Notes: a model not told the origin generated them from the letters alone. A stretch of 64,000 nt of DNA from an uncultured bacterium (GCA_965603355.1 CBFDCQ010000001.1:42350-106349); one strand, 5' to 3'. Positions 26,537 through 42,706 are shown, counted from the stretch's first letter. Numbers and translations are program-made.

Positions 26537-27898
26537 ATGTCAGCATCGTTTTCTATCCTTGTAGTAGATGATGAGGAGGTTATGCGCGACTGTTGCGTGC
26601 AGATCCTGTCCCGAGACGGATGCCGCGTTGAGGTGGCCCACGACGGACTTTCCGGGCTTGAGAGAATAAGGAAGGAGCCGTTTGACGTAGTCATACTGGA
26701 TTGGAAAATGCCGGGCCTGAACGGACTGGACCTGCTTGACCGGATCGCGCAAACAAGCGCGGATACTGTTGTGATAGTAATGACGGGTTACGCTTCAGTC
26801 GAATTTGCAGTAGAGGCAATGAGGCACGGCGCGTACGACTTCATACCGAAACCGTTCCCGCCACGGGTACTTCGCGGGATAGTGGCGCGCGCTCTGGAAA
26901 AGCGCGGCTTCGCCAGGGATACGGTTTGTCCACCGAGCGAGCTTGAGACGTTGCGCGGCGTAGACTCTCTTGTTGGAGAGAGCGTCGTCATGAAAGCTAC
27001 AAAACAGCTCGTTAAACGCGCCGCTGCCACCGACAGTACTGTGCTGATCGCCGGCGAGAGCGGTACGGGCAAGGAACTGGTTGCGCGCGCACTGCACCAT
27101 CACAGTGCGCGCAGAGATGGTTCGTTTGTCACGGTCGATTCCGGCGGGTTGGTCGAGAACCTTATCGAGAGCGAACTCTTTGGTCACGTCAGAGGAGCTT
27201 TCACCGGGGCCACGTCTACTCGACAGGGCAGGTTCGAACTCGCTCATGGCGGAACACTGTTCCTGGATGACGTATCCACCCTTGGCTGGTCCGTCCAAGG
27301 AAAGCTCTTGCGCGCCTTACAGGAACGTGAGATTACAAGAGTCGGCAGCGGCCAGGTCATCAAGGTGGACGTGCGAATTATCGCCGCGACAAACAGCGAC
27401 CTGCTCTCCGACGTGGCCGCGGGAGGATTCAGAGAGGACCTTTTCTACCGGCTAAGTGTAATCCCGATCAATCTGCCGCCACTACGGGAGCGCAAGGAGG
27501 ATATTCCTCATCTCGCCAGCTTCTTCCTGAGAAAGTACAACGCCAAGCGTGCCGCAACCAAGGTCAGGAGCATCTCGGAAGAGGCGCTCAGGATGCTTGC
27601 TGACTACGATTGGCCCGGCAACGTGAGGGAGCTCGAAAATGTCATAGAGCGCGCGGTGGTAATGGCCGATAGCGAGACGGTCCGACCGCTCGACCTCGTC
27701 TGGCACCAGTTCTCATCCGCGGTTAGCCTCCGCGGCGCGCGGTCGGCCGGCGCGCGCCTTGAGGATATCGAAAAAGAACATATCAAGAGAACCTTGGCAA
27801 CGTTCAACAGGCACAAGGCCAAGACGGCTGACGCTCTCGGTATTGACCGCAAAACGCTCCGGAACAAGATGCGACGGTACAATATTGAGGAAGATTAG
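26537..27898 (+). CDS. sigma-54-dependent response regulator (NtrC family: REC, AAA+ sigma-54 activator, Fis-type HTH)
   Basis: REC segment ILVVDDEEVMRD...VILDWKMPGLNG, Walker A GESGTGKE, GAFTGA motif (RGAFTGATS), Walker B LFLDDV, and a C-terminal HTH (KTADALGIDRKTLRNKMRRY). Confidence 0.9.
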   Translation: MSASFSILVVDDEEVMRDCCVQILSRDGCRVEVAHDGLSGLERIRKEPFDVVILDWKMPGLNGLDLLDRIAQTSADTVVIVMTGYASVEFAVEAMRHGAYDFIPKPFPPRVLRGIVARALEKRGFARDTVCPPSELETLRGVDSLVGESVVMKATKQLVKRAAATDSTVLIAGESGTGKELVARALHHHSARRDGSFVTVDSGGLVENLIESELFGHVRGAFTGATSTRQGRFELAHGGTLFLDDVSTLGWSVQGKLLRALQEREITRVGSGQVIKVDVRIIAATNSDLLSDVAAGGFREDLFYRLSVIPINLPPLRERKEDIPHLASFFLRKYNAKRAATKVRSISEEALRMLADYDWPGNVRELENVIERAVVMADSETVRPLDLVWHQFSSAVSLRGARSAGARLEDIEKEHIKRTLATFNRHKAKTADALGIDRKTLRNKMRRYNIEED

Positions 27899-28056: not shown

Positions 28057-28075
28057 CTGGCACAAAAAATGCTAA
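28057..28075 (+). promoter_or_regulatory. candidate sigma-54 (-24/-12) promoter
   Basis: cTGGCAC-aaaaa-aTGCt compared with the consensus TGGCAC-N5-TTGCW. The GG and GC are correctly spaced and sit about 55 nt upstream of the 28127 start. Confidence 0.5.
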
Positions 28076-28126: not shown

Positions 28127-29278
28127 ATGGAGATTAGTGGTGCAACTGTCCTCGTCATTGACGACGAGGAATCGATGCGCGATTCCTGTTATCAGGCGCT
28201 GACGAAGGAGGGGTATCGTGTCGAGACGGCGGTGGACGCGGAGAGCGGCTTGCGCAAGGTGCGCGAGTTATCTCCCGACATCGTGCTCGTGGACCTCAAG
28301 ATGCCCCGCGTTGGTGGAACGGAAGTGTTGAAAGAGATAACCGCAATAGACCCGACGATCGTTGCAGTAGTGATCACGGGTTACGCAACGGTCGAATCGG
28401 CGGTCGAGGCCATGAAATGCGGCGCATACGATTTCCTTCCCAAACCTTTCACTCCGGACGAGCTCCGAATCGTCACGAAAAGAGGCCTGGAAAAGCGACG
28501 GCTGAGTGTCGAAATGGAGGCTCTTCGCAGGGAAAATGAGAGGATGAGAGAGAACTTCGTGACGGTTGTCACGCACGAAATGAGAGCGCCGCTGGTCGCG
28601 GTCGAACAGTACCTTGAAGTGATGCTGAAAGAGATGGCGGGCGATGTCACCGAGAAGCAGAAGGAGATACTCGAGCACAGTCGCAAACGAGTCGAGTGGC
28701 TGCTTACGCTGGTGAACGAATGGCTGAGCATGTCTCGCATCCAGCGGGGGAAAATAGTCGAGAGCCTCGAGACGGTAAAGATGCGGGAACTGCTCGAAGA
28801 ATCGGCCGCCCTGGTCAAGCCCCAAGCTGACGAGAAGGATATCAATATAGAGATCGAGGTGGCGAACGGAGCCGAGTCAATTGAAGGCGACATGGACGCT
28901 CTGAGCCACGTTTTCATGAATCTGGTGAGCAATGCGGTTAAGTACAACCACGAGGAAGGTTCTGTTTGCGTCAGAGCGATTGACAAGGACGATAGCATTG
29001 CCGTGGAGGTTGAGGACACGGGCGTGGGGATTCCCGAAGGTAGCTTGCCGTTCATTTTCGATGAGTTCTTCCGGGTAAAAACCGACGAAGGGCGGCGCGT
29101 GACGGGCACGGGTCTGGGATTAACGGTTGTCAAGAGGATTGTCGAGGCCCATCGCGGTCATGTGACCGTCAAGAGCGCTGTAGGACAAGGCACCACGTTT
29201 GTTGTGTTCTTACCGAAGAAGCAAACGATAGCGGAGCCGGGCATGGCAGAGAAGACCGGCAGCGTGAGTGAATCATAA
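28127..29278 (+). CDS. hybrid response-regulator/histidine kinase (REC, HisKA, HATPase_c) with no sensor or TM domain
   Basis: REC segment VLVIDDEESMRD...VLVDLKMPRVGG, a coiled coil, H-box VVTHEMRAPLVAVEQY, N-box NLVSNAVKYN, and G-boxes DTGVGI and GTGLGLTVV. Its stop overlaps the start of the next gene (TAATG). Confidence 0.85.
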   Translation: MEISGATVLVIDDEESMRDSCYQALTKEGYRVETAVDAESGLRKVRELSPDIVLVDLKMPRVGGTEVLKEITAIDPTIVAVVITGYATVESAVEAMKCGAYDFLPKPFTPDELRIVTKRGLEKRRLSVEMEALRRENERMRENFVTVVTHEMRAPLVAVEQYLEVMLKEMAGDVTEKQKEILEHSRKRVEWLLTLVNEWLSMSRIQRGKIVESLETVKMRELLEESAALVKPQADEKDINIEIEVANGAESIEGDMDALSHVFMNLVSNAVKYNHEEGSVCVRAIDKDDSIAVEVEDTGVGIPEGSLPFIFDEFFRVKTDEGRRVTGTGLGLTVVKRIVEAHRGHVTVKSAVGQGTTFVVFLPKKQTIAEPGMAEKTGSVSES

Positions 29279-30333
29279 TGAATACGCGGTTCATCTCTGA
29301 AGGCAATTTTGTCAGACTACTGGATCATCTGGCCGAACGCGGTCGAGTGTTCGTGGCGGAGCCGGTCGAGGACACCGGAAAGATAGCTTTTCGCGCCCGT
29401 CAAGAGGGTGAGGGTTTCGATTACACCGGTTTTCGCGCGACCCAGTCGCTCAAACCGTTCTTGTTTGTTGCGAGAGAGAAGGTGGCGGAATATCCCTGCG
29501 CGGCTGGGTCCGAGACGGTTCCTGCTGCGGAGCACGTGACCGTGGTAGGGGCGGCGGCGTGCGACCTTGCGGCGTTGAAGACCCTCGACGCAGTCTTCAT
29601 CTCTGAGGATTTTACGGACTGTTTCTATGCGGAGCGGAGGGCAAACACGCTGATCATCAGCATGGAGTGCACGGATCCACGCGACAGCTGTTTTTGCACG
29701 CTCATCGGCAATAAGCCGTATCCGGAAGCCGGATATGACCTGAACCTGGCGAAGGCCGGTGCCGGATATGTCGTCGAGGTGGGGTCCGAGAAGGGAGAAA
29801 GCCTCATCGGTGAACAGGCGTCTCTGTTTAAAGATGCCTCTAAGGAAACGCTCGCCGCGCGGGACAAGGCTCGCGAAGAGGCGGCGCGTCGAGTCGAGGA
29901 TATCAATCGCGGCGTTGAAGTGAGCAGGTCGCGACAAGAGATCCTGAAGCACGCTCCGGAAGATGAGGAATGGCACTCTCACGTGCAAACCTGCGTCGAG
30001 TGTGCAGCCTGCCTCTTCTGCTGTCCGACGTGTCACTGCTTCTTGCTTTACGACCAGAAGGGCGCGGAGAACTTCGAGCGGTTGAAGGTCTGGGACGCCT
30101 GTGTGTATGCAGGATACTCGCGCATGGCGGGTGGCGGGACGCCTAGAGCGTTTCTCGTGGAACGGTTCAGACACCGCTACGCGCACAAGTTCGACCAGAT
30201 TGTCGAGAGGCACGGTATTGAAGGTTGTTCGGGCTGCGGCAGGTGCATAGAAGCCTGTCCCGGCAACATTGACATGCGCAAAGTGTTCAAAGCCCTTGAC
30301 TCTGCGGCGTTAACCGAGAAGGTTGCGAGATGA
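29278..30333 (+). CDS. HydB/AsrA-like 4Fe-4S protein (sulfhydrogenase beta / anaerobic sulfite reductase A family)
   Basis: Cys clusters CVECAACLFCCPTCHCF and CSGCGRCIEACPG. The N-terminal 'ratio' domain and the 351 aa length fit HydB/AsrA-type subunits. Confidence 0.7.
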   Translation: MNTRFISEGNFVRLLDHLAERGRVFVAEPVEDTGKIAFRARQEGEGFDYTGFRATQSLKPFLFVAREKVAEYPCAAGSETVPAAEHVTVVGAAACDLAALKTLDAVFISEDFTDCFYAERRANTLIISMECTDPRDSCFCTLIGNKPYPEAGYDLNLAKAGAGYVVEVGSEKGESLIGEQASLFKDASKETLAARDKAREEAARRVEDINRGVEVSRSRQEILKHAPEDEEWHSHVQTCVECAACLFCCPTCHCFLLYDQKGAENFERLKVWDACVYAGYSRMAGGGTPRAFLVERFRHRYAHKFDQIVERHGIEGCSGCGRCIEACPGNIDMRKVFKALDSAALTEKVAR

Positions 30334-31145
30334 ACAATCTGTATTCCCCGATTCAGGCGCAAATCGAGGAAATCATAAAAGAGACGCCGACCAACAAGAC
30401 GTTCGTCATTCGGCCGGAAGCGCCGATACGTTTCAAGGCGGGCCAGTTCATGCAGCTCACGGTACCAGGCATGGGCGAGGCGCCGTTCACCCCCTCATCG
30501 TCGCCGGCCGTGACCGAGAAGATGGAGATCACCATACTCAAGACCGGCACGGTGACCGATGTGCTCCACACGATGCAAGCGGGAGATAACGTCGGATTGC
30601 GCGGCCCGTTCGGGAAAGGCTACCCGCTGGACAAGTTCGAGAACAAGGAGGTCCTGGTGGTCGGTGGCGGAGTGGGACTGGCCCCTCTGAGATCACTGAT
30701 TCTGGCTATGTTCGAGGATATGGGAAAGTATAAGCGGCTCTCGATAAAATATGGTGCGAAGACGCCGGAGGAGCTGCTTTTCAGGACGAGTTTCGACGAA
30801 TGGTCCAAGAAGCCGCAAACGGATCTTACCGTAACCATCGACGTTCCGGCGCCCGGATGGGAGGGCAAGGTAGGGCTCGTCACGAGCCTGCTGGACGATG
30901 TCGACGTGGACAAGCCCAACAGCTATGTCGTCTCCTGCGGGCCGGGCATCATGCTGCGGTTCGTGACGTATAAGCTTCTCGAAATCGGATTCGAGCCGGA
31001 ACAGATATACTTGTCGATGAACAGGAAAATGAGCTGCGGTGTCGGCAAGTGCGGCAGATGCGAGGTCGGACCGTACTATCTATGCAAAGACGGTCCGGAT
31101 ATGAACTACGCGAAGATTAAGGACGTGCCAAACGTTTTCAGTTGA
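30330..31145 (+). CDS. HydG/AsrB/PyrK-like FAD/NAD(P)H-binding oxidoreductase with a C-terminal [2Fe-2S] site
   Basis: FAD-binding barrel (RFKAGQFMQLTVPGMGEAPFTPSS), nucleotide-binding GGGVGLAPL, and a C-terminal C..CGVGKCGRCEV cluster motif. 4-nt overlap with the upstream gene. Confidence 0.8.
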   Translation: MNNLYSPIQAQIEEIIKETPTNKTFVIRPEAPIRFKAGQFMQLTVPGMGEAPFTPSSSPAVTEKMEITILKTGTVTDVLHTMQAGDNVGLRGPFGKGYPLDKFENKEVLVVGGGVGLAPLRSLILAMFEDMGKYKRLSIKYGAKTPEELLFRTSFDEWSKKPQTDLTVTIDVPAPGWEGKVGLVTSLLDDVDVDKPNSYVVSCGPGIMLRFVTYKLLEIGFEPEQIYLSMNRKMSCGVGKCGRCEVGPYYLCKDGPDMNYAKIKDVPNVFS

Positions 31146-31169
31146 GGGAACCTCGAACAGGTAGTTGAG

Positions 31170-32588
31170 ATGGTTGAGTCAAGAAAAAACATTTGCCTTC
31201 TCTGCTCGCTCGGTTGCGGCCTGATAGTTGATCTGGAATGCGACGAGCCGGTCAACCTCGAGTATGACACGGAAAATGGCGTGAACCGAGGCAAACTGTG
31301 CGCGAAAGGTAATTACATTCTGGAGCTGCTGAACGACCCCTTGCGTCTTGATGTGCCCAAGAAAGACGGCAAACCGATCAGGTGGGAACAGGCGGCAGAT
31401 GAGGTGGCGGATGCCCTGCGTGCCGTTCAGGGCGGCAAGACTGCGGCCGTCGTGCTCTCCGGTGATGCGTCGTGCGAGGACGTCGGGTTGGCCTTTGCGT
31501 TTGCAGCCGATTGCACCGGAGCCGGCAAAGCTGCGATAAGTCTCCCCACCGGCGACGATAAGGTGGTGTCAGCACTCGCGGAAACGTCCGGCGGCGTTGC
31601 GCAGGCCACTCTGGACGATGTCGAGAACTCCGTGTGCACGATCGCCGTGGGGGATCCGTTTGCCAGATGTCCCGTTATAGCCGGGAGAGTTCTTGCCGCG
31701 CGAAATGCGGCCCGCGAGAACTCTCTCAACGTGGTCTCTCGAGAGAGCAACATGACGTCGCGGTTCGCTGCGACCCACCTCCTTGGACCCGAGCGAGATA
31801 GCATGCTGGATCTTGTTGCCGCAGTGGTGGAGGCGCGGGGCGGCGCGAAGGAAAAGTGGTTGAATCAACTGGTCAAGGGCGTGGATGCCGGTTCGGACGC
31901 GCAGAAATTGGCGAAGAGCTTCGTTGAGTCCGAGCGGGCGGTAGTGGTGTTGTCCACGGACGATCCGGTGGTCGCACAACTGGCGAACGCTCTCGTCAAG
32001 GCTGCCGGCGACACGAAGGGACTTTTCGCGCTGCACGATTACGGTAACGCGCGCAGTATTGCGGAGATTTCATCCGGTGACGTTTCGGCCGAGGACGTGA
32101 TCAAGTCTGCGGCCCGTGGGGAGATAGAGGTTCTGCTCGTACTGGGGGCAGATCTCGTGTCGTCATATCCGAACCTGGATGTGAACGGAGCGCTGTCTGA
32201 AGTGCAACTGCTTGTTGCGGGAGCACCGTTTCCGAACAAGACGACATCTCTGGCCGGCATGGTTCTGCCGACTGCGCTGTGGATCGAGCAGGATGGCACG
32301 TTCAATGGTGCTCAATGCCAGCGGGTCGTCGCCCCACCTGGAGGTGCAATGTCGTATGGCGACATACTGAAGGCCGTCGCCAAAGCGACGGGCGTTGAGT
32401 TGCGTGCACACGAAGCGCCAGAAGCGCTCGCGGAAGCGGCCCTTGACGAGGGCAAGGCGGCGGCAATTGCTAAAGCGGCTCGCGAGGAGGCAGTGACATC
32501 ACCCGTCGTGTCGACGGCAACGTGTTTTGCGGACGGTTCCCTAACGGACAGAGTGAGTTGGGTTAAGATGGTAGAAAGAGTTCCGTGA
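31170..32588 (+). CDS. FdhA/NuoG-like molybdopterin-oxidoreductase-family protein, short form (472 aa)
   Basis: N-terminal 4Fe-4S motif CLLCSLGCGL...C-x3-C (CAKGNY) typical of the MopB Fe4S4 domain, then the start of a MopB-like domain (PIRWEQAADEVADAL). About 250 aa shorter than catalytic FdhH/FdhA. Confidence 0.6.
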   Translation: MVESRKNICLLCSLGCGLIVDLECDEPVNLEYDTENGVNRGKLCAKGNYILELLNDPLRLDVPKKDGKPIRWEQAADEVADALRAVQGGKTAAVVLSGDASCEDVGLAFAFAADCTGAGKAAISLPTGDDKVVSALAETSGGVAQATLDDVENSVCTIAVGDPFARCPVIAGRVLAARNAARENSLNVVSRESNMTSRFAATHLLGPERDSMLDLVAAVVEARGGAKEKWLNQLVKGVDAGSDAQKLAKSFVESERAVVVLSTDDPVVAQLANALVKAAGDTKGLFALHDYGNARSIAEISSGDVSAEDVIKSAARGEIEVLLVLGADLVSSYPNLDVNGALSEVQLLVAGAPFPNKTTSLAGMVLPTALWIEQDGTFNGAQCQRVVAPPGGAMSYGDILKAVAKATGVELRAHEAPEALAEAALDEGKAAAIAKAAREEAVTSPVVSTATCFADGSLTDRVSWVKMVERVP

Positions 32589-33077
32589 ATGAAGAAGCTG
32601 TTTGTAGATCTCGATCTCTGCATAGGATGTCAAGCACATAGCGTCGCCTGCAGTCGCGTAAACCACGACATCCTGACGATGCAGAGCGGCGAGATACCGG
32701 AGGAAGGCACGCTGCCTGTCGTGTGCAGACACTGCGAGACCGCCGCGTGCGTCGCTGCTTGTCCGAACGAGTCGATGAAGAAGCACGAGGACGGCATCGT
32801 TAGGAGAAACATGGCGACATGCACCGGCTGCATGAGCTGTACGCTGGCGTGCCCGTTCGGGACGCTGACTCGCGGCATGAGACTGGCCCGGCACTCGTCG
32901 AGCAAGTGCGACCTGTGCGCGCCGAGGGTAGAACGCGGGCTTGAACCCGCCTGCGTTGCGACGTGTCCCACAAGCGCGCTACAGTTTAGAGAGGTTGAAG
33001 AGGTCTACGAGGCGAAAGACGTTCTCGTGGTGGGAGCACATACAATCGGACATAGCCCGTACATAAGGAGAGCCTAG
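32589..33077 (+). CDS. HycB-like poly-ferredoxin (4x [4Fe-4S])
   Basis: CIGCQAHSVAC, CRHCETAACVAACP, CTGCMSCTLACP and CDLCAPR...CVATCP. Size and cysteine spacing match HycB/HyfA. The ATG overlaps the previous stop. Confidence 0.8.
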   Translation: MKKLFVDLDLCIGCQAHSVACSRVNHDILTMQSGEIPEEGTLPVVCRHCETAACVAACPNESMKKHEDGIVRRNMATCTGCMSCTLACPFGTLTRGMRLARHSSSKCDLCAPRVERGLEPACVATCPTSALQFREVEEVYEAKDVLVVGAHTIGHSPYIRRA

Positions 33078-33096
33078 CGGGAGAAGCCCGCGTGAA

Positions 33097-34035
33097 TTGG
33101 TGAGGATGATGAGTGCATTTGGCGTACCATATTTCCTGGCTGTGTTCGCCGTAACGGCTGTTGTAGGACTGGTGACGAGCTGGGTGGACAGAAAAGTCAC
33201 CGCGCGGGTGCAAGCGCGGGTTGGTCCGCCGTGGTTCCAACCGTTTGCGGATTTCGTGAAGCTGCTAGGCAAAGAGACGCTCGTGCCCGAAGGCAGCCGT
33301 CAGAAAGGCTTCCTCGTCGCGCCGCTGTTGGCACTCGTTGGCGTGTCGCTTGGCGCGGCGGCGCTCGTGTCAGGAGGTGTACTTGGCAAGGAAGGCTTTA
33401 TCGGAGACATAGTAGTTGTGCTGTACCTGCTCACGATACCGTCAGCGGCGCTGATACTCGGCGCGGCCTCGACCGGCAACCCTATGGCGTCTGTCGGGGC
33501 GAGTCGCGAGATGAAGCTCATACTCGCGTACGAGCTGCCGTTCCTTATCGTAGTGCTTACGGCCGTGTACAAAGCGCAGGCCGGTTTCATGATCGACAAG
33601 ATCGTGGACTACCAGGCTCAGAACGGCGCGTTCATATGGAGCATTTCGGGAGTCATCGGGTTCATCGTTGCGATACTGTGCATTCAGGGCAAGCTGGGGT
33701 TGGTGCCGTTTGACGCGCCGGAGGCTGAGCAGGAGTTGATGGGCGGTGTTCTTACAGAGTACTCCGGCGTCCCGCTGGCGCTGTTCAAGCTCAGCAAAGC
33801 GATGATGCTGAGCGTTCTGACAGTCTTTCTGGCGGTCATATTCTTTGGCGGAATGCAATTCAAGGGCATCGATATCCTGTGGAGTATCTTGAAGTATCTC
33901 GTGCCGGTAGTGCTGGTGGTCTTGATCAGAAACACGAACCCGAGGTTGAGGATTGACCAGATAATGAAGCTGTTCTGGGGTCCGCTTACGGTGCTGGCCC
34001 TGATCGCTCTGTTGCTGGCAAGGTTCAACCTCTGA
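33097..34035 (+). CDS. membrane subunit NuoH/HycD/MbhM-like
   Basis: Polytopic membrane protein, 312 aa, with a conserved NuoH-like segment (GLVPFDAPEAEQELMGGVLTEYSG). Confidence 0.85.
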   Translation: MVRMMSAFGVPYFLAVFAVTAVVGLVTSWVDRKVTARVQARVGPPWFQPFADFVKLLGKETLVPEGSRQKGFLVAPLLALVGVSLGAAALVSGGVLGKEGFIGDIVVVLYLLTIPSAALILGAASTGNPMASVGASREMKLILAYELPFLIVVLTAVYKAQAGFMIDKIVDYQAQNGAFIWSISGVIGFIVAILCIQGKLGLVPFDAPEAEQELMGGVLTEYSGVPLALFKLSKAMMLSVLTVFLAVIFFGGMQFKGIDILWSILKYLVPVVLVVLIRNTNPRLRIDQIMKLFWGPLTVLALIALLLARFNL

Positions 34036-34055
34036 TCTTTATGGAGTGAAGCGTT

Positions 34056-34487
34056 ATGAGCGTTAAGATGTGGGGACTGAAGAAGTCGCCCTGGGTGTAC
34101 CACGTAGCGCTGTCACCCTGCAATAACTGCGACATAGAGATACTCGACCTGCTGACTCCGAGATTCGATGTGGAACGTTTTGGAATAAAGCTCGTGGGCA
34201 GTCCCAGACACGCTGACGCCCTGCTTGTTACCGGATCCGTAAACCGGCACGTTCTCCCCAGGTTTGTCGAGCTATACAAGCAGACGGCGAAACCGTGCGT
34301 GGTGTTCGCGATAGGCTCCTGCGGTCTGTCATCGACTATGTTCAGAGATAACTACAACATCGTCGGCCCCATTGACAAGGTCGTGAGACAGATCGATCCT
34401 AACGCCATCATCGCGTACGTGCCGGGATGTCCGCCAAAACCGGAGGCGATGATCTCCGGAGTGGTCAAGGCGCTGAGCGTGTTATAG
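34056..34487 (+). CDS. [NiFe]-hydrogenase small subunit, NuoB-like (HycG/MbhJ/EchC-type)
   Basis: SPCNNCDIE (compare HycG SCNGCEIE), GSCG and GCPPKPE provide the four Cys of the proximal [4Fe-4S]. Confidence 0.85.
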   Translation: MSVKMWGLKKSPWVYHVALSPCNNCDIEILDLLTPRFDVERFGIKLVGSPRHADALLVTGSVNRHVLPRFVELYKQTAKPCVVFAIGSCGLSSTMFRDNYNIVGPIDKVVRQIDPNAIIAYVPGCPPKPEAMISGVVKALSVL

Positions 34488-34499
34488 GAGAGGTGAAGT

Positions 34500-34955
34500 A
34501 TGAGTGGTAGCGTCGCGCTGACAGCGGTCAAAGAGAGCATGCCGGCAAAGATTTTGGAAATCGTGGAGAGATCTCCCGCGCGCGCATACGTATACATTGC
34601 GCCGGAGGAGATAGTCGCAGCGTCGCGGTTCATGTTCGAGGAGTGCGGTGTGCGGCTCGCCACGGTGTCCGGTGTAGACACGAGGAGCGGCATCGAGCTG
34701 GTTTACCATTGGATGAGCGCGAAGGACCATCAGTTCATCATGATCAAGACAAAAGTCAAGAAACCGTTCCCGGAAATAGACTCGGTCGGCTCGTTTCTGC
34801 CGGCGGCGGTTTGGATTGAGAGGGAAATCCACGACATTCTGGGTGTGGTTTTCAGAGGGCACCCTGATTTCAGGAAACTCATTCTTTCAGATGATTGGCC
34901 TGAGGGAATCCACCCCTATAAGCGCGGCGTGAGATTCGGGGAGTTTAAGGCATGA
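34500..34955 (+). CDS. NuoC-like subunit (MbhK/EchD-type)
   Basis: 151 aa NuoC/30-kDa-subunit fold (LVYHWMSAKDH...WIEREIHDILGVVFRGHPD). Overlaps the large-subunit gene by 4 nt. Confidence 0.8.
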   Translation: MSGSVALTAVKESMPAKILEIVERSPARAYVYIAPEEIVAASRFMFEECGVRLATVSGVDTRSGIELVYHWMSAKDHQFIMIKTKVKKPFPEIDSVGSFLPAAVWIEREIHDILGVVFRGHPDFRKLILSDDWPEGIHPYKRGVRFGEFKA

Positions 34956-36184
34956 AAAGGACGATAGTACCGCTCGGCCCGTTTCACCCTCTGCTGGAGG
35001 AGGCGGAGCATTTTCAGCTTTACGTCGAGGGTGAAACTGTCGTTGACATAGACATGCGCATCGGCTACATGCACCGTGGAATTGAGAAGATGAGCCAGTA
35101 CAAGACGTTCGACCAAGTACCTTTCACCGTCGAGCGCATCTGCGGCATCTGCTCCACCTCCCACCCGATAGCCTATGTGAACGCCGTGGAGGACCTCGCG
35201 GGAATAGAGATCCCAGAGAGAGCGAAGTATATCAGGAACATCGTCGCCGAGCTTGAACGGTTGCATAGTCACATGTTATGGGTGGGACTCGCCGGTCACT
35301 TCATCGGGTACGATACGGTGTTCATGTGGGCCTGGAAATATCGGGAGCCGATTCTCGACATCTTCGAGCTAATAAGCGGCAATCGCAACCATTATGCTAT
35401 GATGAAGCCCGGCGGTGTCAGACGCGACATCAAGGAGGAGGATTTCCCTGCGATAATCTCGATGCTCGACACGCTGGCTAAGGGCAATGAGCTTTTCACC
35501 GGCGCGGTCGTGGATGACCCGGTAATTCACGCGAGGACAAAAGGCGTCGGAATCCTGAGTAAGGAGGATGCGATTTCCTACGGTACTGTCGGGCCCACTG
35601 TGCGAGGTTCGGACATATCTGATGATATTCGGACGGATGACCCGTACGCGGGTTACGACCTGGTCGATTGGGACGTGATCACGTACGAGGGAGGAGACGT
35701 GTTCGCCAAAGCGGCAGTAAGGTTGCTGGAGAACTTCGAGTCGATCAAGATCATAAGGCAAAGCCTCGAGAAGATGCCGCCCGGACCGATTGAGACGGAA
35801 GTCAGGGAAATACCGCCCGGCGAGGGCGTCGGTCACGCGGAAGCGCCGCGCGGCGAGGTGTTCCATTATGTGCGCAGCGACGGGTCGGCCTGTCCCGTGC
35901 GACACAAGATTCGCGCGCCAAGCTTCGTGAACATACCGTCGTTCAAAGCTACCTGCATCGGCGAGACTATAGCCGATGTCGCTCTTATCACGGCTTCGGT
36001 TGACCCGTGCTATTGCTGCACCGAACGGATGGCGGTGGTTGACCGACAAACTGAGGACGTTCTCATGTCCGGCGAAGAGTTGGTGCGCATGAGCCGGGAG
36101 AAGACCAAAGAGATCAAGGAGGGGCTTGGGCAGGAAACGCCCATTGACAAGCTTGCCCGTAAACTGCAGAGAGGAGAGTTGTAG
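34952..36184 (+). CDS. [NiFe]-hydrogenase large subunit, group 4 (NuoD-like; MbhL/EchE/HycE-type)
   Basis: N-terminal Ni-Fe ligand motif RICGICSTSH and C-terminal DPCYCCTER (DPCxxCxxR), both intact. 410 aa. Confidence 0.9.
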   Translation: MKRTIVPLGPFHPLLEEAEHFQLYVEGETVVDIDMRIGYMHRGIEKMSQYKTFDQVPFTVERICGICSTSHPIAYVNAVEDLAGIEIPERAKYIRNIVAELERLHSHMLWVGLAGHFIGYDTVFMWAWKYREPILDIFELISGNRNHYAMMKPGGVRRDIKEEDFPAIISMLDTLAKGNELFTGAVVDDPVIHARTKGVGILSKEDAISYGTVGPTVRGSDISDDIRTDDPYAGYDLVDWDVITYEGGDVFAKAAVRLLENFESIKIIRQSLEKMPPGPIETEVREIPPGEGVGHAEAPRGEVFHYVRSDGSACPVRHKIRAPSFVNIPSFKATCIGETIADVALITASVDPCYCCTERMAVVDRQTEDVLMSGEELVRMSREKTKEIKEGLGQETPIDKLARKLQRGEL

Positions 36185-36234: not shown

Positions 36235-38064
36235 ATGAACTTGCTCCTTTATCCGATACTGGTTCCGCTTGCGGGCGGACTGTTGGCGCTACTGATGCCG
36301 CGTGCGCTCAAGGGGTTGAGAGAGCTGGTCTGCATTGTGGCGACCGGCGCGACAGTCTACCACGCCGCGCAGATAGTGAGGATAAGCAGCCTCGGCGAGC
36401 GCCTTGACTTCTCACGTCCCTGGTTGAGCATAGAGAACTTCGTGTTCTCGATTAGCCTGCGCGCGGACGCGCTTAGCCGGTTCATCGTCCTGGCTGCCTC
36501 CATATTCGGGCTGCTAATTGTCCTGTACTCCATAGGATATATGAGGAACAAGGACAGGCTCCCCGAGTATTACGCTTACATTGTCTGGACAGTCGCCGCG
36601 GCTAACGCCGCATTGCTGGCGGATAACCTCATACTGCTGCTCGTTTCGTGGGAAGTGGTCACCGTGCTGCTGTTCTTCCTAATCACGATAGCCGGCGAAG
36701 GGTCGCCGCCGGCCGCCGGGAAGACTTTTGTAATGATCGGTGCGGCGGACTGCGCCATGCTGCTCGGAATAGTCCTCATTTGGCGGGTGATGGGCACTCT
36801 CGAGATCAGTGCATTGAGACACGTACCGATGCAGACCGGTATGATGCATCTGATTTACGCGCTTCTGCTTGCCGGGGCAATTACAAAAGCGGGCGCTATG
36901 CCGGGCCATTCCTGGATACCGAAAGCGGCGGAGATTGCGCCGACATCTGTCATGGCGTTTCTGCCGGCGGCGCTCGACAAGCTGCTCGGCATCTATCTGC
37001 TCGCCCGCATGTCGCTATACATGTTCGCGCCCAGCGAGGCAATGAAGCTGGCGCTGCTTATCATAGGCGCTGTCACTATCATATTGGCAGTGATGGCGGC
37101 CCTCGTGCAACACGAGCTCAAGAAGCTTCTGTCCTGTCACGCAGTAAGCCAGGTCGGCTACATGGTAATGGGTATCGGAACCGGCGTCCCGCTCGGCATC
37201 ATTGGCGGCCTTTTCCACATGTTGAACAACGCAATCTACAAATGTTGCCTGTTCCTGACCGCCGGCGCCGTCGAACGTAAAGCGGGTACCACTGAGCTTG
37301 AGAAGCTCGGTGGACTTGCCTCGGCAATGCCCGTCACGTTCGGCGCATGCGTGATCGCGGCGTTAGCCATCTCCGGAGTGCCGCCGCTCAATGGGTTCGC
37401 GTCCAAATGGTTCGTCTACCAGGGGGTGCTCCAGGTTGGTCGTCCGGTGTTCGTCGTGGCGGCGATGTTCGGCAGCGCGCTGACGCTTGCGTCGTTTATA
37501 AAGGTCATCTATTCGGTGTTCCTCGGCAAGCGCCCGGAATCGCTCCGTTCCATCAAGCCGGTAGGTTTCTCGATGACTTTTCCGATGATCTTCCTCGCGC
37601 TATTGTGCATAGTATTCGGTGTATTCTACCATCTACCAGTCAAACAGTTCATAGCCCCCGCGCTCGGAAGTCAGGCGCTGGTATTACCGCAACTTGGATT
37701 GTGGGACTCGACTCTTGCTACCGGGCTGATCGTTATTGGGCTCGTGATCGGGATCATCATCTATCTGTTTGGGACGGCCTTCAAAGGGCGCACCACGTCT
37801 ATCTTCGTGGGCGGCGAGACACTGGACGAGGAAGAGAGCCGCGTACCTGGCACGGGCTTTTACGAGACGGTAACCTCCATGCGCGGTCTCGGCACGATCT
37901 ATCGGGACGCGGAACAGGGTGCGTACGACCTGTACGTGCTTGGGGCACGGTACGGACAGAAGATCGTTGACGTGTTCAGGGGAATGCATACGGGTATAGT
38001 GTCGACGTACGTCGCTTTTTGCGTGGCTGGACTTGGCATAATACTGTTCTTACTGTTGAGGTAA
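36235..38064 (+). CDS. Mrp/NuoL-family antiporter-like subunit (MrpA/MbhH-like), 609 aa
   Basis: About 16 TM helices and conserved NuoL/MrpA segments (WEVVTVLLFFLI, HAVSQVGYMVMGIG). Confidence 0.85.
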   Translation: MNLLLYPILVPLAGGLLALLMPRALKGLRELVCIVATGATVYHAAQIVRISSLGERLDFSRPWLSIENFVFSISLRADALSRFIVLAASIFGLLIVLYSIGYMRNKDRLPEYYAYIVWTVAAANAALLADNLILLLVSWEVVTVLLFFLITIAGEGSPPAAGKTFVMIGAADCAMLLGIVLIWRVMGTLEISALRHVPMQTGMMHLIYALLLAGAITKAGAMPGHSWIPKAAEIAPTSVMAFLPAALDKLLGIYLLARMSLYMFAPSEAMKLALLIIGAVTIILAVMAALVQHELKKLLSCHAVSQVGYMVMGIGTGVPLGIIGGLFHMLNNAIYKCCLFLTAGAVERKAGTTELEKLGGLASAMPVTFGACVIAALAISGVPPLNGFASKWFVYQGVLQVGRPVFVVAAMFGSALTLASFIKVIYSVFLGKRPESLRSIKPVGFSMTFPMIFLALLCIVFGVFYHLPVKQFIAPALGSQALVLPQLGLWDSTLATGLIVIGLVIGIIIYLFGTAFKGRTTSIFVGGETLDEEESRVPGTGFYETVTSMRGLGTIYRDAEQGAYDLYVLGARYGQKIVDVFRGMHTGIVSTYVAFCVAGLGIILFLLLR

Positions 38065-38072
38065 CGCAGACC

Positions 38073-38627
38073 ATGATATTCTTGCTATATTTGCTGCTCC
38101 TTTTCATGATCGCCGGCGCGATAATCGCCATTGAGACGAAAGACCTGCTCTCGAGCGTGATATGTGTAGGCGCGATCGGACTGGGACTGGCAATAATCTT
38201 TCTGTTGCTTGGCGCACCTGACCTCGCCATCGTACAAGTAGTCGTGGAGGTTCTCAGCCTCGTGTTGCTGCTGCGCGTGGTGGTTAAGCGTGAGGACGTT
38301 ACCATCGCTCACCGGTACAGGTATGGCGAGGTGTTCGCGACCGCGACCGCGCTCGTGTTTTTCGGCGTATTCATTGTGCTGGCCTCCATGGCCTACAAGG
38401 AAATGCCGGCGTTTGGTCAACCGATCCTCAATGTATCGCAGCGTTACATCGCGGAGGGTATGGACAAGGTGGGAGCGCCAAACCTCGTCACAGGGATCTT
38501 GCTGGATTACCGCGCCTACGATACCCTCGGTGAGGCAACAGTTATTTTCACAGCAATCATTGGCAGTTTGGTCATCCTGAGAAAGAGAGGCAGGATACGT
38601 CATGAAGGGGATGAGCCTCATAGTTAG
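38073..38627 (+). CDS. small Mrp-module membrane subunit (MbhD/MrpB-N-like)
   Basis: ATG with RBS GAGG directly after the MrpA-like stop. Hydrophobic 184 aa protein, and the only subunit type of the Mbh/Mrp set otherwise unassigned here. Confidence 0.55.
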   Translation: MIFLLYLLLLFMIAGAIIAIETKDLLSSVICVGAIGLGLAIIFLLLGAPDLAIVQVVVEVLSLVLLLRVVVKREDVTIAHRYRYGEVFATATALVFFGVFIVLASMAYKEMPAFGQPILNVSQRYIAEGMDKVGAPNLVTGILLDYRAYDTLGEATVIFTAIIGSLVILRKRGRIRHEGDEPHS

Positions 38628-39033
38628 GACTATAACCCGGCTGCTTGTCGGGTTCATTCTCGTGTACGGCGCCCACATCGTGCTGTACGGGCATCTGACG
38701 CCGGGCGGCGGTTTTGCCGGCGGCGTTATGCTGGCGTGTGCACTGATACTTCTCGTCCTGGCTTTCGGCAAGGAAGCGGCGCTGGATATCGTGAGCGAGA
38801 ATGCCGCATCGGCGTGGGACTGCATAGGAGCTCTTCTGTTCCTGCTTATAGCCCTGCTTGGGCTGACGGGAGGCTATTTCTTCAGGAACGTCCTCGACAA
38901 GGGCAAACCGTTCGACCTGCTCAGTGCAGGGACTCTTATGTGGAGCAATATCGCGATCGGGATCAAGGTAGGCGCGTGCTTGTTCCTGGTATTTCTGGTG
39001 CTGGCGGCCTTCAGGATACGCGACGAAGGGTAG
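38602..39033 (+). CDS. MnhB/MrpB-domain subunit (MbhE-like)
   Basis: MrpB hallmark HLTPGGGFAGGVMLA and four TM helices. Confidence 0.7.
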   Translation: MKGMSLIVRTITRLLVGFILVYGAHIVLYGHLTPGGGFAGGVMLACALILLVLAFGKEAALDIVSENAASAWDCIGALLFLLIALLGLTGGYFFRNVLDKGKPFDLLSAGTLMWSNIAIGIKVGACLFLVFLVLAAFRIRDEG

Positions 39034-39040
39034 GGAAGCG

Positions 39041-40881: not shown

Positions 40882-40897
40882 AACGAGGTTAGACCTG

Positions 40898-42613: not shown

Positions 42614-42706
42614 CGGCGTCTCGTTCTCGATCGAATGGAGTTGTGCGGGAAAACCATCGGCGGTTCTTTCCGCAGGGAGTTTTGCAGCCAAGAGGGGGTG
42701 TTTGAA

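What the first reader, a model, noticed from the sequence alone, without database searches (positions are those of the whole stretch)
31170..32588. Short FdhA/NuoG-like protein: Fe4S4 and proximal MopB region present, distal molybdopterin-binding part missing
It is 472 aa against roughly 700 or more for catalytic formate dehydrogenase alpha subunits. It keeps the N-terminal CxxCxxxC...C cluster and the start of the MopB fold, then ends. Like NuoG's degenerate MopB domain, it may serve as an electron-transfer connector rather than a formate-oxidising site. If so, the complex is not a formate hydrogenlyase despite its FHL-like layout. No formate channel (focA) is visible nearby.
Basis: inference. 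Interest (0 to 1): 0.6.

Follow-up and report, generated by a model that had tools for sequence, protein, structure and literature searches.

The report
Dead, shortened formate-dehydrogenase relic in hydrogenase
The 472-residue protein is a conserved, catalytically dead and shortened relative of formate dehydrogenase that keeps only its iron-sulfur cluster and sits in a membrane-bound, probably NAD(P)H-linked, hydrogenase, so the complex is very unlikely to be a formate hydrogenlyase; this type of gene cluster has been noted in two earlier genome surveys but never studied experimentally.

Summary
The ORF 31170..32588 (+) is real and is a MopB (molybdopterin oxidoreductase) homologue. It keeps the [4Fe-4S] motif (C9, C12, C16, C44). 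It also keeps the whole of MopB domains II and III, not just their start. What is missing is the C-terminal beta-barrel (domain IV, PF01568) and some loops. The shortness is not a frameshift: more than 50 homologues down to 37% identity are all about 460-485 aa.

The formate dehydrogenase catalytic triad is gone. Sec/Cys140 aligns to a variable Gly128, His141 to an invariant Asp129, and Arg333 to a variable His289. No separate domain IV gene lies in the window or in the 13 related loci held when that search was run.

Across at least seven candidate phyla the gene sits in one operon type. The order is sulfhydrogenase beta-like, gamma-like (FAD/NAD(P)H), dead MopB, HycB-like ferredoxin, then a genuine group 4 [NiFe] hydrogenase, in most cases with Mrp antiporter subunits. 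A Rex NADH sensor gene often lies just upstream.

Best reading: a cofactor-less iron-sulfur and scaffold subunit of an NAD(P)H-linked, ion-translocating hydrogenase, not a formate hydrogenlyase. Whether its cluster is on the electron path is unresolved. The cluster type was described in silico in 2019 and 2026. This is a new member of a known but uncharacterised kind.

The parts
28058..28073 (+). Sigma-54-type promoter TGGCAC-N5-ATGCT, 54 nt upstream of the first gene of the operon
   Evidence: The only match to TGGCACNNNNNWTGCW in the 64-kb window; 0.03 expected by chance. It lies next to an NtrC-type sigma-54 activator gene at 26537..27898. Function is inferred, not shown.
28127..29278 (+). 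Hybrid response-regulator/histidine kinase; its stop overlaps the start of the next gene by 1 nt
   Evidence: Pfam Response_reg, HisKA and HATPase_c. The same gene sits in the same position in L004, whose MopB is 37% identical.
29278..30333 (+). Sulfhydrogenase-beta / AsrA-like iron-sulfur subunit (351 aa, 18 Cys)
   Evidence: Pfam Fer4_22. NCBIfam ShyB 1e-44, HydB 5e-43, AsrA 2.5e-36, all below curated cut-offs. PDB 9nez_B, P. furiosus SHI beta, 5e-40 over residues 10-333.
30330..31145 (+). Sulfhydrogenase-gamma / AsrB-like flavoprotein: FAD-binding and NAD(P)-binding domains and a C-terminal [2Fe-2S] motif
   Evidence: Pfam FAD_binding_6, NAD_binding_1 and DHODB_Fe-S_bind. PDB 9nez_C, SHI gamma, 4.8e-51 over residues 3-269. 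The C-terminal motif CGVGKCGRC...C is visible.
31170..32588 (+). The finding: a 472-aa catalytically dead MopB-like subunit with domains I-III and no beta-barrel
31194..31301 (+). Codons for the [4Fe-4S] ligands C9, C12, C16 and C44, with invariant K46 just after (31305..31307)
   Evidence: These align with FdhH C8, C11, C15, C42 and K44. They are conserved in all family members aligned.
31551..31556 (+). G128-D129, at the position of the Mo ligand Sec/Cys140 and His141 of FdhH
   Evidence: HMMER alignments to 7qv7_S and 9t1s_L and MAFFT with E. coli FdhF. Position 128 varies (G/N/H/D/A); D129 is invariant.
32034..32036 (+). H289, at the position of the catalytic Arg333 of FdhH
   Evidence: The column holds H/N/T/G/F/L/S and never Arg.
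32526..32549 (+). FADGSLTD (residues 453-460), a conserved vestige of the first elements of domain IV
   Evidence: D455 and G456 are invariant and T459 nearly so. The motif aligns with the FdhF and NuoG segments at the start of domain IV. pLDDT here is about 81-85.
32589..33077 (+). HycB-like four-cluster ferredoxin (162 aa); its first motif is CxxCxxHxxxC
   Evidence: Pfam Fer4_11. phmmer against E. coli HycB gives 3e-17.
33097..34035 (+). NuoH/HycD/MbhM-like membrane subunit
   Evidence: Pfam NADHdh 3.6e-68.
34056..34487 (+). NuoB/HycG-like hydrogenase small subunit, with 4 Cys for the proximal cluster
   Evidence: Pfam Oxidored_q6; cysteines.
34500..34955 (+). NuoC-like subunit
   Evidence: Pfam Complex1_30kDa.
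34952..36184 (+). [NiFe] hydrogenase large subunit, group 4: RICGICSTSH ... DPCYCCTER followed by a 51-aa C-terminal extension
   Evidence: Both Ni-binding Cys pairs are present. Best PDB matches are P. furiosus MbhL 6cfw_L (5e-87) and E. coli HycE 7z0s_E (2e-85).
36235..41998 (+). Membrane and antiporter module. NuoL/MbhH-like 36235..38064; MbhD/E 38073..38627; MnhB 38602..39033; NuoK-like 39041..39385; MrpD-like 39382..40881; MnhE 40898..41383; MrpF 41383..41652; MnhG 41645..41998
   Evidence: Pfam. Gene calls come from the identical contig L001.
42002..42613 (+). NuoI/HycF/MbhN-like 2x[4Fe-4S] subunit (203 aa)
   Evidence: Pfam Fer4 families. phmmer against E. coli HycF gives 4.8e-24. Two CxxCxxCxxxC motifs.
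42635..43105 (+). Stand-alone receiver-domain protein at the end of the operon
   Evidence: Pfam Response_reg 1.5e-21. Several relatives have HycI or HypA at this position instead.

Best explanation
The 472-aa protein is a degenerate, cofactor-less descendant of a formate-dehydrogenase-type MopB subunit. It keeps the N-terminal [4Fe-4S] cluster (FS0) and the two Rossmann-like domains II and III. It has lost the Mo/W-ligating Sec/Cys, the catalytic His and Arg, and the whole beta-barrel domain IV that clamps the bis-MGD cofactor.

It is a stoichiometric subunit of a 17-gene, Mrp-linked group 4 [NiFe] hydrogenase. It occupies the place FdhF has on HycB in formate hydrogenlyase. The electron input has been taken over by a sulfhydrogenase beta/gamma-type NAD(P)H:iron-sulfur module encoded just upstream.

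Proposed path (inferred): NAD(P)H, then FAD and [2Fe-2S] in the gamma-like subunit, then the [4Fe-4S] clusters of the beta-like subunit, then the HycB-like, NuoI-like and NuoB-like subunits, then [NiFe]. Turnover would be coupled to H+/Na+ movement through the Mrp/Nuo-type membrane subunits. Depending on H2 pressure the enzyme could run either way, evolving or consuming H2.

The dead MopB would serve as a scaffold or assembly subunit. Its FS0 would be a side-branch or relay cluster next to the HycB-like ferredoxin.

Shown here: the losses, the conservation, the synteny and the genuine Ni-binding motifs. Inferred: absence of MGD, the order of electron transfer, the NAD(P)H specificity and the ion coupling.
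For: Catalytic residues are lost. Sec/Cys140 aligns to G128 (variable), His141 to D129 (invariant) and Arg333 to H289 (variable). This comes from HMMER alignments to 7qv7_S and 9t1s_L and MAFFT with E. coli FdhF.

Domain IV is absent. A custom domain-IV HMM finds no separate FwdD-like ORF in the window or in loci L001-L013 (best E 1.9).

Degeneracy is comparable to a known cofactor-less MopB. The family keeps 19 of 50 columns conserved among true MGD enzymes; E. coli NuoG keeps 23. Among the lost positions are FdhF D202 of the DPR motif and D429.

The shortness is under selection. Fifty-two homologues at 37-92% identity were found and, apart from four partial sequences, are 453-486 aa long. 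FS0 cysteines are invariant or nearly so. The AlphaFold2 model is confident: pLDDT 92, pTM 0.91.

There is a structural precedent for a beta-barrel-less, inactive Fdh-like module. NfnA 9bov_A aligns contiguously, profile positions 5-432 against residues 688-1126 of 1178, and StnC 8oh5_C is also hit. The papers are PMC10482914 and PMC12018979.

Context is conserved. The order beta-like, gamma-like, MopB, HycB-like, NuoH/B/C/D(NiFe)/L is conserved in loci from Latescibacterota, Planctomycetota, Poribacteria, Margulisiibacteriota and Omnitrophota.

The input module matches P. furiosus SHI beta and gamma over their full lengths. A Rex gene lies immediately upstream in L018, L019 and L020.

The large subunit has both Ni-binding Cys pairs and is closest to MbhL and HycE.

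Independent literature describes the same cluster type (PMC6349859; PMC13582414).
Against: No complex model or biochemistry is available. The position of FS0 relative to the beta-like and HycB-like clusters is unknown.

The published AlphaFold3 model of a related cluster places the Fdh-like protein at a third terminus of the iron-sulfur network. Its authors suggest an unidentified third substrate and bifurcation or confurcation (PMC13582414).

Several loops that line the former cofactor cleft are very strongly conserved: TGDD 127-130, VGDPF 160-164, YGN 291-293, LPTALWxExDGT 366-377 and the FADGSLTD tail. That is more than a passive scaffold would seem to need, although NuoG also keeps part of these motifs. 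Lys46, equivalent to FdhH Lys44, is invariant in the core family.

Absence of MGD is inferred from sequence, not measured. A domain IV protein or Mo-cofactor genes elsewhere in the genome cannot be excluded from a 64-kb window.
Confidence: 0.78

Rival explanations
1. The protein is a third redox terminus. The dead MopB cleft and FS0 would form a binding or catalytic site for another partner, such as ferredoxin or an unknown small substrate. The complex would then couple three redox pairs (H+/H2, NAD(P)+/NAD(P)H and X), possibly by confurcation or bifurcation, rather than being a two-substrate NAD(P)H hydrogenase.
For: The AlphaFold3 model reported in PMC13582414 has three termini to the iron-sulfur network and its authors propose this reading. 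FS0 cysteines and K46 are conserved across the core family; FS0 cysteines are also conserved in the wider clade apart from a Cys-to-Asp change in two sequences. The ex-active-site loop has acquired an invariant Thr127 and Asp129, and the tail motif FADGSLTD is conserved. In the core clade, one cluster of the HycB-like subunit has a conserved His ligand, CxxCxxHxxxC. By analogy with four-cluster beta subunits, and from my own knowledge, I infer this to be the cluster next to FS0. His-ligated clusters often mark entry or exit points.
Against: No bifurcating cofactor is evident. The only flavin is in a PyrK/SHI-gamma-type subunit. The same cleft motifs are partly kept in cofactor-less NuoG. Domain IV has been lost at least twice independently in the clade (rough neighbour-joining tree), which argues for relaxed rather than new constraint on the cleft. 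No candidate substrate or extra gene is conserved in the operon.
Confidence: 0.14
2. The protein is a genuine formate or formylmethanofuran-type dehydrogenase whose domain IV is supplied in trans, as FwdB/FwdD are in methanogens. The complex would then be a true formate hydrogenlyase.
For: FwdB-type proteins are about 430 aa and also lack domain IV; 8rja_B is a weak hit (E 6e-4 to 9e-4). The operon order MopB, HycB, then hydrogenase mimics the formate hydrogenlyase layout; that comparison rests on my own knowledge.
Against: There is no Sec or Cys at the metal-ligand position, and no His or Arg. No PF01568-like ORF occurs in the window or in loci L001-L013. There is no FocA. There is no Moco riboswitch or other Rfam hit. 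The NCBIfam Fdh-alpha score is 98.5 against a cut-off of 666.
Confidence: 0.03
3. The gene is a pseudogene or assembly artefact: a full-length fdhA truncated by a frameshift or a premature stop.
For: The MopB stop codon TGA (32586..32588) is directly followed, in the same frame, by the ATG of the next ORF.
Against: The next ORF is a HycB-type ferredoxin, not a MopB continuation. In relatives the two genes overlap by 4 nt in different frames (L004, L005). The identical protein is found on 23 independent contigs. Homologues down to 37% identity end at the same place, with a conserved C-terminal motif.
Confidence: 0.01

Closest known systems
Group 4b Mrp-linked [NiFe] hydrogenase clusters with a Cys/Sec-less 'Fdh' and SHI-beta/gamma homologues (PMC13582414, 2026). 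The same type was called the 'enigmatic group 4 hydrogenase' of Saganbacteria RX5A, with asrA/asrB/cooF-like genes and an unclassifiable molybdopterin oxidoreductase (PMC6349859, 2019)
   Same: The gene content and order are the same: beta-like, gamma-like, MopB-like lacking the Mo ligand, four-cluster ferredoxin, a group 4 large and small subunit with intact Ni motifs, and Mrp subunits.
   Different: Those papers do not mention loss of the beta-barrel. The Saganbacteria protein is described as having a molybdopterin-binding domain. Here, domain IV is absent in the window's clade and in a separate Margulisiibacteriota/Omnitrophota clade. The window's operon is under sigma-54/two-component control rather than Rex. 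Nothing in this class has been characterised experimentally.
FdhF (FdhH) of E. coli formate hydrogenlyase, and FdhF of the T. kivui hydrogen-dependent CO2 reductase (7z0t, 7qv7)
   Same: The fold of domains I-III is shared, with query-normalised TM about 0.72-0.74. The FS0 cysteines and the Lys after the fourth Cys are shared. The gene lies next to a HycB-type ferredoxin and a group 4 hydrogenase.
   Different: There is no Sec/Cys140, His141 or Arg333, no domain IV, and the protein has 243 fewer residues than E. coli FdhF (472 against 715). There is no FocA, and an NAD(P)H module lies upstream.
NuoG/Nqo3 C-terminal MopB-like domain of respiratory complex I
   Same: It is a cofactor-less MopB relic within a complex-I-type enzyme that oxidises a nicotinamide cofactor. 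It retains a similar number of MopB-conserved columns, 19 against 23 of 50. The fold match to 7nz1_G has a query-normalised TM of 0.73.
   Different: NuoG has an N-terminal [2Fe-2S] and two [4Fe-4S] clusters that carry the main electron path, partners with NuoE and NuoF, and keeps the beta-barrel (PMC12018979). The window protein is a stand-alone subunit without those domains or the barrel. The flavoprotein here is of the SHI-gamma (FAD) type, not NuoF (FMN). The NuoG model score is 66 against a cut-off of 470.
Fdh-like C-terminal domain of Nfn-BfuA/StnC electron-bifurcating transhydrogenases (9bov_A, 8oh5_C)
   Same: It is catalytically inactive, lacks the beta-barrel present in Nqo3 and FdsA, and keeps the FS0-type cluster (PMC10482914 and PMC12018979). 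It aligns contiguously with the window family across domains I-III.
   Different: There it is fused to NuoG-N-terminal and GltD-like domains in a soluble enzyme. Its clusters are reported not to take part in electron transfer and the domain mediates oligomerisation. Here it is a separate subunit of a membrane-bound hydrogenase.
FwdB/FmdB with FwdD of formylmethanofuran dehydrogenase (split MopB)
   Same: It is a MopB polypeptide of about 430-470 aa containing domains I-III only (weak hit to 8rja_B).
   Different: From my own knowledge, FwdB has the catalytic Cys and receives domain IV in trans from FwdD. Here there is no catalytic Cys and no FwdD-like ORF.

Membership tests
Catalytic formate dehydrogenase alpha subunit (FdhH/FdhA, TIGR01591) | N-terminal [4Fe-4S] motif CxxCxxxC...C (FS0) | tested here: met
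   C9, C12, C16 and C44 align with FdhH C8, C11, C15 and C42.
Catalytic formate dehydrogenase alpha subunit (FdhH/FdhA, TIGR01591) | Sec or Cys ligand to Mo/W followed by His (FdhH U140-H141) | tested here: not met
   G128-D129 occupy these positions. Position 128 varies across the family (G/N/H/D/A).
Catalytic formate dehydrogenase alpha subunit (FdhH/FdhA, TIGR01591) | Catalytic Arg (FdhH R333) | tested here: not met
   H289 in the window protein. The column is H/N/T/G/F/L/S across the family and never Arg.
Catalytic formate dehydrogenase alpha subunit (FdhH/FdhA, TIGR01591) | C-terminal MGD-binding beta-barrel (domain IV, PF01568) | tested here: not met
   No PF01568 hit. Only 51 residues follow the FdhF-541 equivalent, against 175 in FdhF. 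There is no trans-encoded copy in the window or loci L001-L013.
Catalytic formate dehydrogenase alpha subunit (FdhH/FdhA, TIGR01591) | Score at or above the curated NCBIfam cut-off | tested here: not met
   98.5 bits against a cut-off of 666.25.
NuoG (TIGR01973) | N-terminal [2Fe-2S] (N1b) and [4Fe-4S] (N4, N5) domains | tested here: not met
   The protein begins at the MopB Fe4S4 domain. Only PF04879 and PF00384 are found.
NuoG (TIGR01973) | MopB-like domain that has lost the catalytic and cofactor-binding residues | tested here: met
   The triad is lost. The family keeps 19 of 50 MopB-conserved columns, against 23 of 50 for E. coli NuoG.
NuoG (TIGR01973) | Operon partners NuoE and NuoF, and a score at or above the cut-off | tested here: not met
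   There is no NuoE or NuoF; SHI beta/gamma-like genes take their place. The score is 66.3 bits against 470.05.
FwdB/FwdD-type split MopB | Separate domain IV subunit (FwdD-like, PF01568) encoded nearby, and a catalytic Cys in the B subunit | tested here: not met
   A custom domain-IV HMM run against all ORFs of 40 aa or more in the window and 13 loci gives a best E of 1.9. There is no Cys at the ligand position. The rest of the genome was not available.
Beta-barrel-less inactive Fdh-like module (Nfn-BfuA/StnC type) | Domains I-III with the FS0 cluster, no beta-barrel, no catalytic residues | tested here: met
   Contiguous alignment to 9bov_A residues 688-1126 of 1178. Foldseek hits to 9bov_A and 8oh5_C. 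The papers describe the barrel's absence and the inactivity.
Beta-barrel-less inactive Fdh-like module (Nfn-BfuA/StnC type) | Fusion to NuoG-N-terminal and GltD/NfnL-like domains, with HydBC-type bifurcating partners | tested here: not met
   It is a stand-alone 472-aa protein, and there are no HydB/HydC-like genes in the operon.
Group 4 Mrp-linked [NiFe] hydrogenase with SHI-beta/gamma and a Cys/Sec-less Fdh-like subunit (PMC13582414, PMC6349859) | Large subunit with both Ni-binding CxxC motifs | tested here: met
   RICGICSTSH and DPCYCCTER. Best PDB matches are MbhL and HycE.
Group 4 Mrp-linked [NiFe] hydrogenase with SHI-beta/gamma and a Cys/Sec-less Fdh-like subunit (PMC13582414, PMC6349859) | Mrp antiporter-type membrane subunits in the same operon | tested here: met
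   MbhD/E, MnhB, NuoK-like, MrpD-like, MnhE, MrpF and MnhG.
Group 4 Mrp-linked [NiFe] hydrogenase with SHI-beta/gamma and a Cys/Sec-less Fdh-like subunit (PMC13582414, PMC6349859) | Adjacent SHI-beta and SHI-gamma homologues and an Fdh-like gene lacking the Mo ligand | tested here: met
   Conserved in relatives.
Group 4 Mrp-linked [NiFe] hydrogenase with SHI-beta/gamma and a Cys/Sec-less Fdh-like subunit (PMC13582414, PMC6349859) | Placement of the large subunit in HydDB subgroup 4b by phylogeny | not testable with these tools
Subgroup 4b is taken from the paper's description of this cluster type.

The most novel reading that the evidence does not exclude
The vestigial MopB cleft would be a functional third redox terminal. 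It is lined by an invariant Thr127 and Asp129, closed by the conserved FADGSLTD tail, and wired through the retained FS0. FS0 in turn lies next to a His-ligated cluster of the HycB-like subunit; that adjacency is my inference. The cleft could be a ferredoxin dock or an unknown substrate site. The complex would then be an ion-translocating three-way (NAD(P)H / X / H2) confurcating or bifurcating hydrogenase, a kind of enzyme not yet demonstrated for group 4 hydrogenases.
Probability: 0.12. Interest if true: 0.8.

Novelty: new member of a known kind. Interest (0 to 1): 0.42.

Why it matters
Annotation pipelines label such genes 'anaerobic selenocysteine-containing dehydrogenase' or 'formate dehydrogenase' (source names). 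That would make this cluster look like a formate hydrogenlyase. It is very unlikely to be one, so metabolic reconstructions of Hydrogenedentota, Latescibacterota, Planctomycetota, Omnitrophota and Margulisiibacteriota-type MAGs should not infer formate-driven H2 production from it.

The more interesting point is evolutionary. This is a complex-I-like membrane enzyme in which a formate-dehydrogenase subunit has been inactivated and kept as an iron-sulfur and scaffold relic, while an NAD(P)H-oxidising flavoprotein module has been grafted on. That parallels the proposed origin of NuoG and the N-module of complex I, but uses a different flavoprotein (SHI gamma rather than NuoF).

If the enzyme really couples NAD(P)H/H2 interconversion to ion translocation, it would be a distinct way for fermenters and syntrophs to dispose of, or gain, reducing power. 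The repeated loss of the beta-barrel after inactivation also shows what happens to a MopB fold once the cofactor is gone.

Tried and rejected
1. Frameshift or readthrough. The MopB TGA and the following ATG are in the same frame. Rejected because relatives overlap by 4 nt in different frames and the downstream ORF is a ferredoxin.

2. Split enzyme with a trans-encoded domain IV. A custom HMM search was negative.

3. Selenocysteine. The ORF has no in-frame TGA before its stop. The Sec position is a Gly codon. There are no Rfam hits, so no SECIS or Moco riboswitch.

5. Identifying the organism. The scan of GTDB species representatives found only relatives at 44% identity or less. Exact look-ups returned no organism names for the window's own proteins. 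The nearest named relative is a Ca. Hydrogenedentota MAG, for a 77%-identical homologue.

6. Modelling the MopB/HycB/beta-like interface. This was not attempted.

7. I first thought the segment around the catalytic Arg had been deleted, on the basis of the two-piece HMMER matches. MAFFT and the NfnA alignment show that it is retained as LHDYGN with the Arg replaced.
Full report
THE OBSERVATION

An ORF of 472 codons runs from ATG 31170 to TGA 32588 on the + strand. Pfam finds the Molybdop_Fe4S4 domain on residues 5-55 and the Molybdopterin (PF00384) domain on residues 68-405. It finds no Molydop_binding domain (PF01568). NCBIfam gives only sub-threshold hits: Fdh-alpha 98.5 bits against a cut-off of 666, NuoG 66 against 470, and QrcB 64.5 against 440.

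The best solved relatives are cytoplasmic formate dehydrogenases: FdhF of the hydrogen-dependent CO2 reductase (7qv7_S, E 1e-21) and an F420-dependent formate dehydrogenase (9t1s_L, E 6e-38 with a family profile). The homology and the cluster motif C9-x2-C12-x3-C16...C44 are therefore real.

The PF00384 match spans profile positions 15-352 of 353, so domains II and III are complete. An AlphaFold2 model built on 37 family members is confident (pLDDT 92.1, pTM 0.91). It superposes on complete formate dehydrogenases, Nap and NuoG with a query-normalised TM of 0.72-0.74.

What is missing is the C-terminal beta-barrel, domain IV, together with some loops. Only 51 residues follow the position equivalent to FdhF residue 541, against 175 in E. 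coli FdhF. A loop of about 40 residues after the YGN motif is also absent. The conserved C-terminal motif FADGSLTD (residues 453-460) aligns with the first elements of domain IV of FdhF and NuoG and looks like its vestige.

NOT A FRAMESHIFT

The word-index protein search returned 52 homologues at 37-92% identity. Apart from four partial sequences of 278-351 aa, they are 453-486 aa long. They end with the same motif. The identical protein occurs on 23 contigs from independent assemblies.

The ORF just downstream, 32589..33077, is a HycB-type four-cluster ferredoxin (Pfam Fer4_11; E. coli HycB 3e-17). It is not a continuation of FdhA. In this window the two ORFs happen to be in the same frame, separated only by TGA. 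In relatives they overlap by 4 nt in different frames, so readthrough or fusion is not a conserved feature.

CATALYTIC RESIDUES

I fetched E. coli fdhF and nuoG and aligned them with the family. FdhH C8, C11, C15 and C42 correspond to C9, C12, C16 and C44, and K44 corresponds to K46. In the 37-member family alignment C44 and K46 are invariant and C9, C12 and C16 are nearly invariant.

Sec140 aligns with G128, a variable position (G/N/H/D/A). His141 aligns with D129, which is invariant. Arg333 aligns with H289, which is variable and never Arg. The HMMER alignments to 7qv7_S (catalytic Cys) and 9t1s_L (Sec, printed as X) give the same result for the first two positions.

Fifty columns are conserved in at least 80% of 15 bona fide MGD-binding MopBs. 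The family keeps 19 of them. Its domain-IV-bearing dead relatives keep 22, and the cofactor-less E. coli NuoG keeps 23. The lost positions include FdhF D202 of the DPR motif and D429. I take these to be nucleotide-ribose ligands; that is inference from general knowledge of the fold.

A domain-IV HMM built from seven sequences finds nothing better than E 1.9 in any ORF of 40 aa or more in the window or in loci L001-L013. This argues against an FwdB/FwdD-type split enzyme, at least locally. No FocA, HycI or HypA homologue is in the window. No Rfam family, and so no Moco riboswitch, is found either.

CONTEXT

The gene lies inside a tightly packed + strand operon from 28127 to 43105. Intergenic gaps range from -26 to +50 nt. 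The gene order is as follows.
- A hybrid response-regulator/histidine kinase.
- A sulfhydrogenase-beta/AsrA-like iron-sulfur protein.
- A sulfhydrogenase-gamma/AsrB-like FAD/NAD(P)/[2Fe-2S] protein.
- The short MopB.
- The HycB-like ferredoxin.
- NuoH-, NuoB- and NuoC-like subunits.
- A large subunit.
- A NuoL-like subunit, MbhD/E, MnhB, a NuoK-like subunit, an MrpD-like subunit, MnhE, MrpF and MnhG.
- A NuoI/HycF-like subunit.
- A stand-alone receiver protein.

The large subunit carries both Ni-binding motifs (RICGICSTSH, DPCYCCTER). Its closest solved relatives are P. furiosus MbhL (5e-87) and E. coli HycE (2e-85). This is therefore a genuine group 4 [NiFe] hydrogenase, not an Ehr- or Nuo-type complex.

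The two upstream proteins match the beta and gamma subunits of P. furiosus sulfhydrogenase I over their full lengths (9nez_B 5e-40, 9nez_C 4.8e-51). In that enzyme they form the NADPH-oxidising module (as cited in PMC13582414).

CONSERVATION OF THE ARRANGEMENT

The same order, from the beta-like gene through the NuoI-like gene, is found around homologues at 37-44% identity (L004, L005/L006). It is also visible by ORF layout in Ca. Latescibacter anaerobius (L009); Planctomycetota MAGs also carry the gene.

An exhaustive profile search found 168 clusters (50% identity) at E below 1e-30. About 16 of them are core-family clusters of 461-483 aa. A second tier is about 520-615 aa long. Nearly all of the second-tier proteins examined carry a domain IV of roughly 130-145 residues. 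They equally lack Cys/Sec and Arg and have the same Asp at the His141 position.

I looked at four such relatives: a 596-aa form, a 546-aa Poribacteria form, a 482-aa Margulisiibacteriota form and a 499-aa Omnitrophota form. All sit in the same operon type, which often ends with HycI or HypA. Three of the four have a Rex gene (PF06971 plus PF02629) immediately upstream. From general knowledge, Rex senses the NADH/NAD+ ratio, so this fits an NAD(P)H-linked enzyme.

A rough neighbour-joining tree, without support values, makes the dead-MopB clade monophyletic. It places the window's barrel-less clade and the Margulisiibacteriota/Omnitrophota barrel-less clade apart, each next to barrel-bearing forms. 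That suggests at least two independent losses of domain IV after inactivation.

MECHANISM

The best-supported reading is a cofactor-less iron-sulfur and scaffold subunit. It would occupy the FdhF position on the HycB-like ferredoxin of an NAD(P)H-linked, ion-translocating Mrp-Mbh-type hydrogenase.

Electrons would run from NAD(P)H to FAD and the [2Fe-2S] cluster in the gamma-like subunit. They would pass through the beta-like clusters, then the HycB-like, NuoI-like and NuoB-like clusters, and finally reach [NiFe]. The path is reversible. All steps of it are inferred from homology.

Standard potentials make NAD(P)H-driven H2 evolution uphill unless H2 is kept very low. The membrane module could therefore either drive it with the ion gradient, or conserve energy in the H2 to NAD(P)+ direction. 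This is inference.

Whether FS0 is on the path is open. The 2026 paper reports an AlphaFold3 model of a related Desulfobacterota cluster in which the iron-sulfur network has three termini: the large subunit, SHI-gamma and the Fdh-like protein. Its authors suggest an unidentified third substrate. Two observations keep that rival alive at roughly one chance in seven. First, the former cofactor-cleft loops, K46 and the tail motif are very strongly conserved. Second, the first cluster motif of the HycB-like subunit has a conserved Cys-to-His change in the window's clade.

COMPARISON WITH WHAT IS KNOWN

The protein fails every defining feature of a catalytic formate dehydrogenase except FS0. It is not NuoG either: it has no N-terminal cluster domains and no NuoE/NuoF partners, and NuoG keeps the barrel. 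It does work like NuoG's relic domain in being a dead MopB inside a complex-I-type enzyme.

Architecturally, the nearest solved thing is the barrel-less, inactive Fdh-like domain of Nfn-BfuA/StnC. 9bov_A aligns contiguously over profile positions 5-432, and the papers are cited.

The operon type itself has already been described twice in silico. It appears as the 'enigmatic' group 4 hydrogenase of Saganbacteria, related to Zixibacteria and Omnitrophica sequences (PMC6349859). It also appears as the half of group 4b clusters whose Fdh lacks Cys/Sec and co-occurs with SHI-beta/gamma homologues (PMC13582414).

The finding is therefore a new member of a known but uncharacterised kind. The barrel loss and its recurrence are small additions that I did not find mentioned in the passages I read of those papers.

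VERDICT

Its 'connector' mechanism is unproven. Interest is moderate. The system is evolutionarily attractive as a parallel to the origin of NuoG and the N-module of complex I, and it would be bioenergetically interesting if NAD(P)H/H2 coupling to ion translocation were shown. It is not new to the literature.

Noticed in passing
window 28058-28073 (+), with 24599-27898: There is a single sigma-54-type promoter, TGGCACAAAAAATGCT, 54 nt upstream of the operon; it is the only match in 64 kb, with 0.03 expected by chance. Just before it lie a Cache/HAMP histidine kinase and an NtrC-type sigma-54 activator. The same regulatory trio precedes the operon in L004, whereas three other relatives (L018, L019, L020) have a Rex gene instead.
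   Followed up: partly
window 32619-32651 (HycB-like residues 11-21): The first cluster motif of the HycB-like ferredoxin is CxxCxxHxxxC (His17 in place of the third Cys). This is conserved in the window, L004, L005 and L009. The motif is canonical CxxCxxCxxxC in L017-L020 and in E. coli HycB. By analogy with four-cluster beta subunits (my inference), this would be the cluster nearest the MopB FS0.
   Followed up: partly
window 32586-32591: The MopB stop codon TGA is immediately followed by the ATG of the HycB-like gene, in the same reading frame. Relatives instead have a 4-nt ATGA overlap in different frames, so this looks like translational coupling rather than a Sec codon or readthrough fusion.
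   Followed up: yes
window 36029-36184 and 42635-43105: The [NiFe] large subunit has a 51-residue extension after DPCYCCTER, which implies C-terminal processing. No HycI-type protease or Hyp gene is in the window. Where relatives have HycI or HypA at the operon end, this window has a stand-alone receiver-domain gene.
   Followed up: partly
related proteins P0074-P0105, P0096, P0217 and others; loci L016-L020: A wider clade of Cys/Sec-less MopB proteins, all with Asp at the His141 position, exists with domain IV (about 546-615 aa), with a reduced domain IV (P0053, 512 aa) and without it (about 460-511 aa). A rough neighbour-joining tree suggests that the barrel was lost at least twice independently.
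   Followed up: partly
window about 43000-45000: GC skew changes sign here and cumulative skew peaks near 44 kb. This is exactly where gene orientation switches, from all + (up to 43105) to all - (from 43146). It could be strand-biased transcription or a replication terminus-like convergence.
   Followed up: no
window 2173-10066 (+): There is a complete Bat/MoxR-type 'aerotolerance' operon: MoxR AAA_3, DUF58, BatA and other VWA proteins, a TPR protein and BatD. It is followed by an HtrA-like protease (11003-12505).
   Followed up: no
window 47334-59618 (-): There is a type II secretion cluster: a 961-aa secretin with six Secretin_N repeats, then GspC-, M-, K-, F- and E-like genes. Upstream of the hydrogenase operon there is also an 851-aa clostripain-family (C11) peptidase at 21760-24315.
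   Followed up: no
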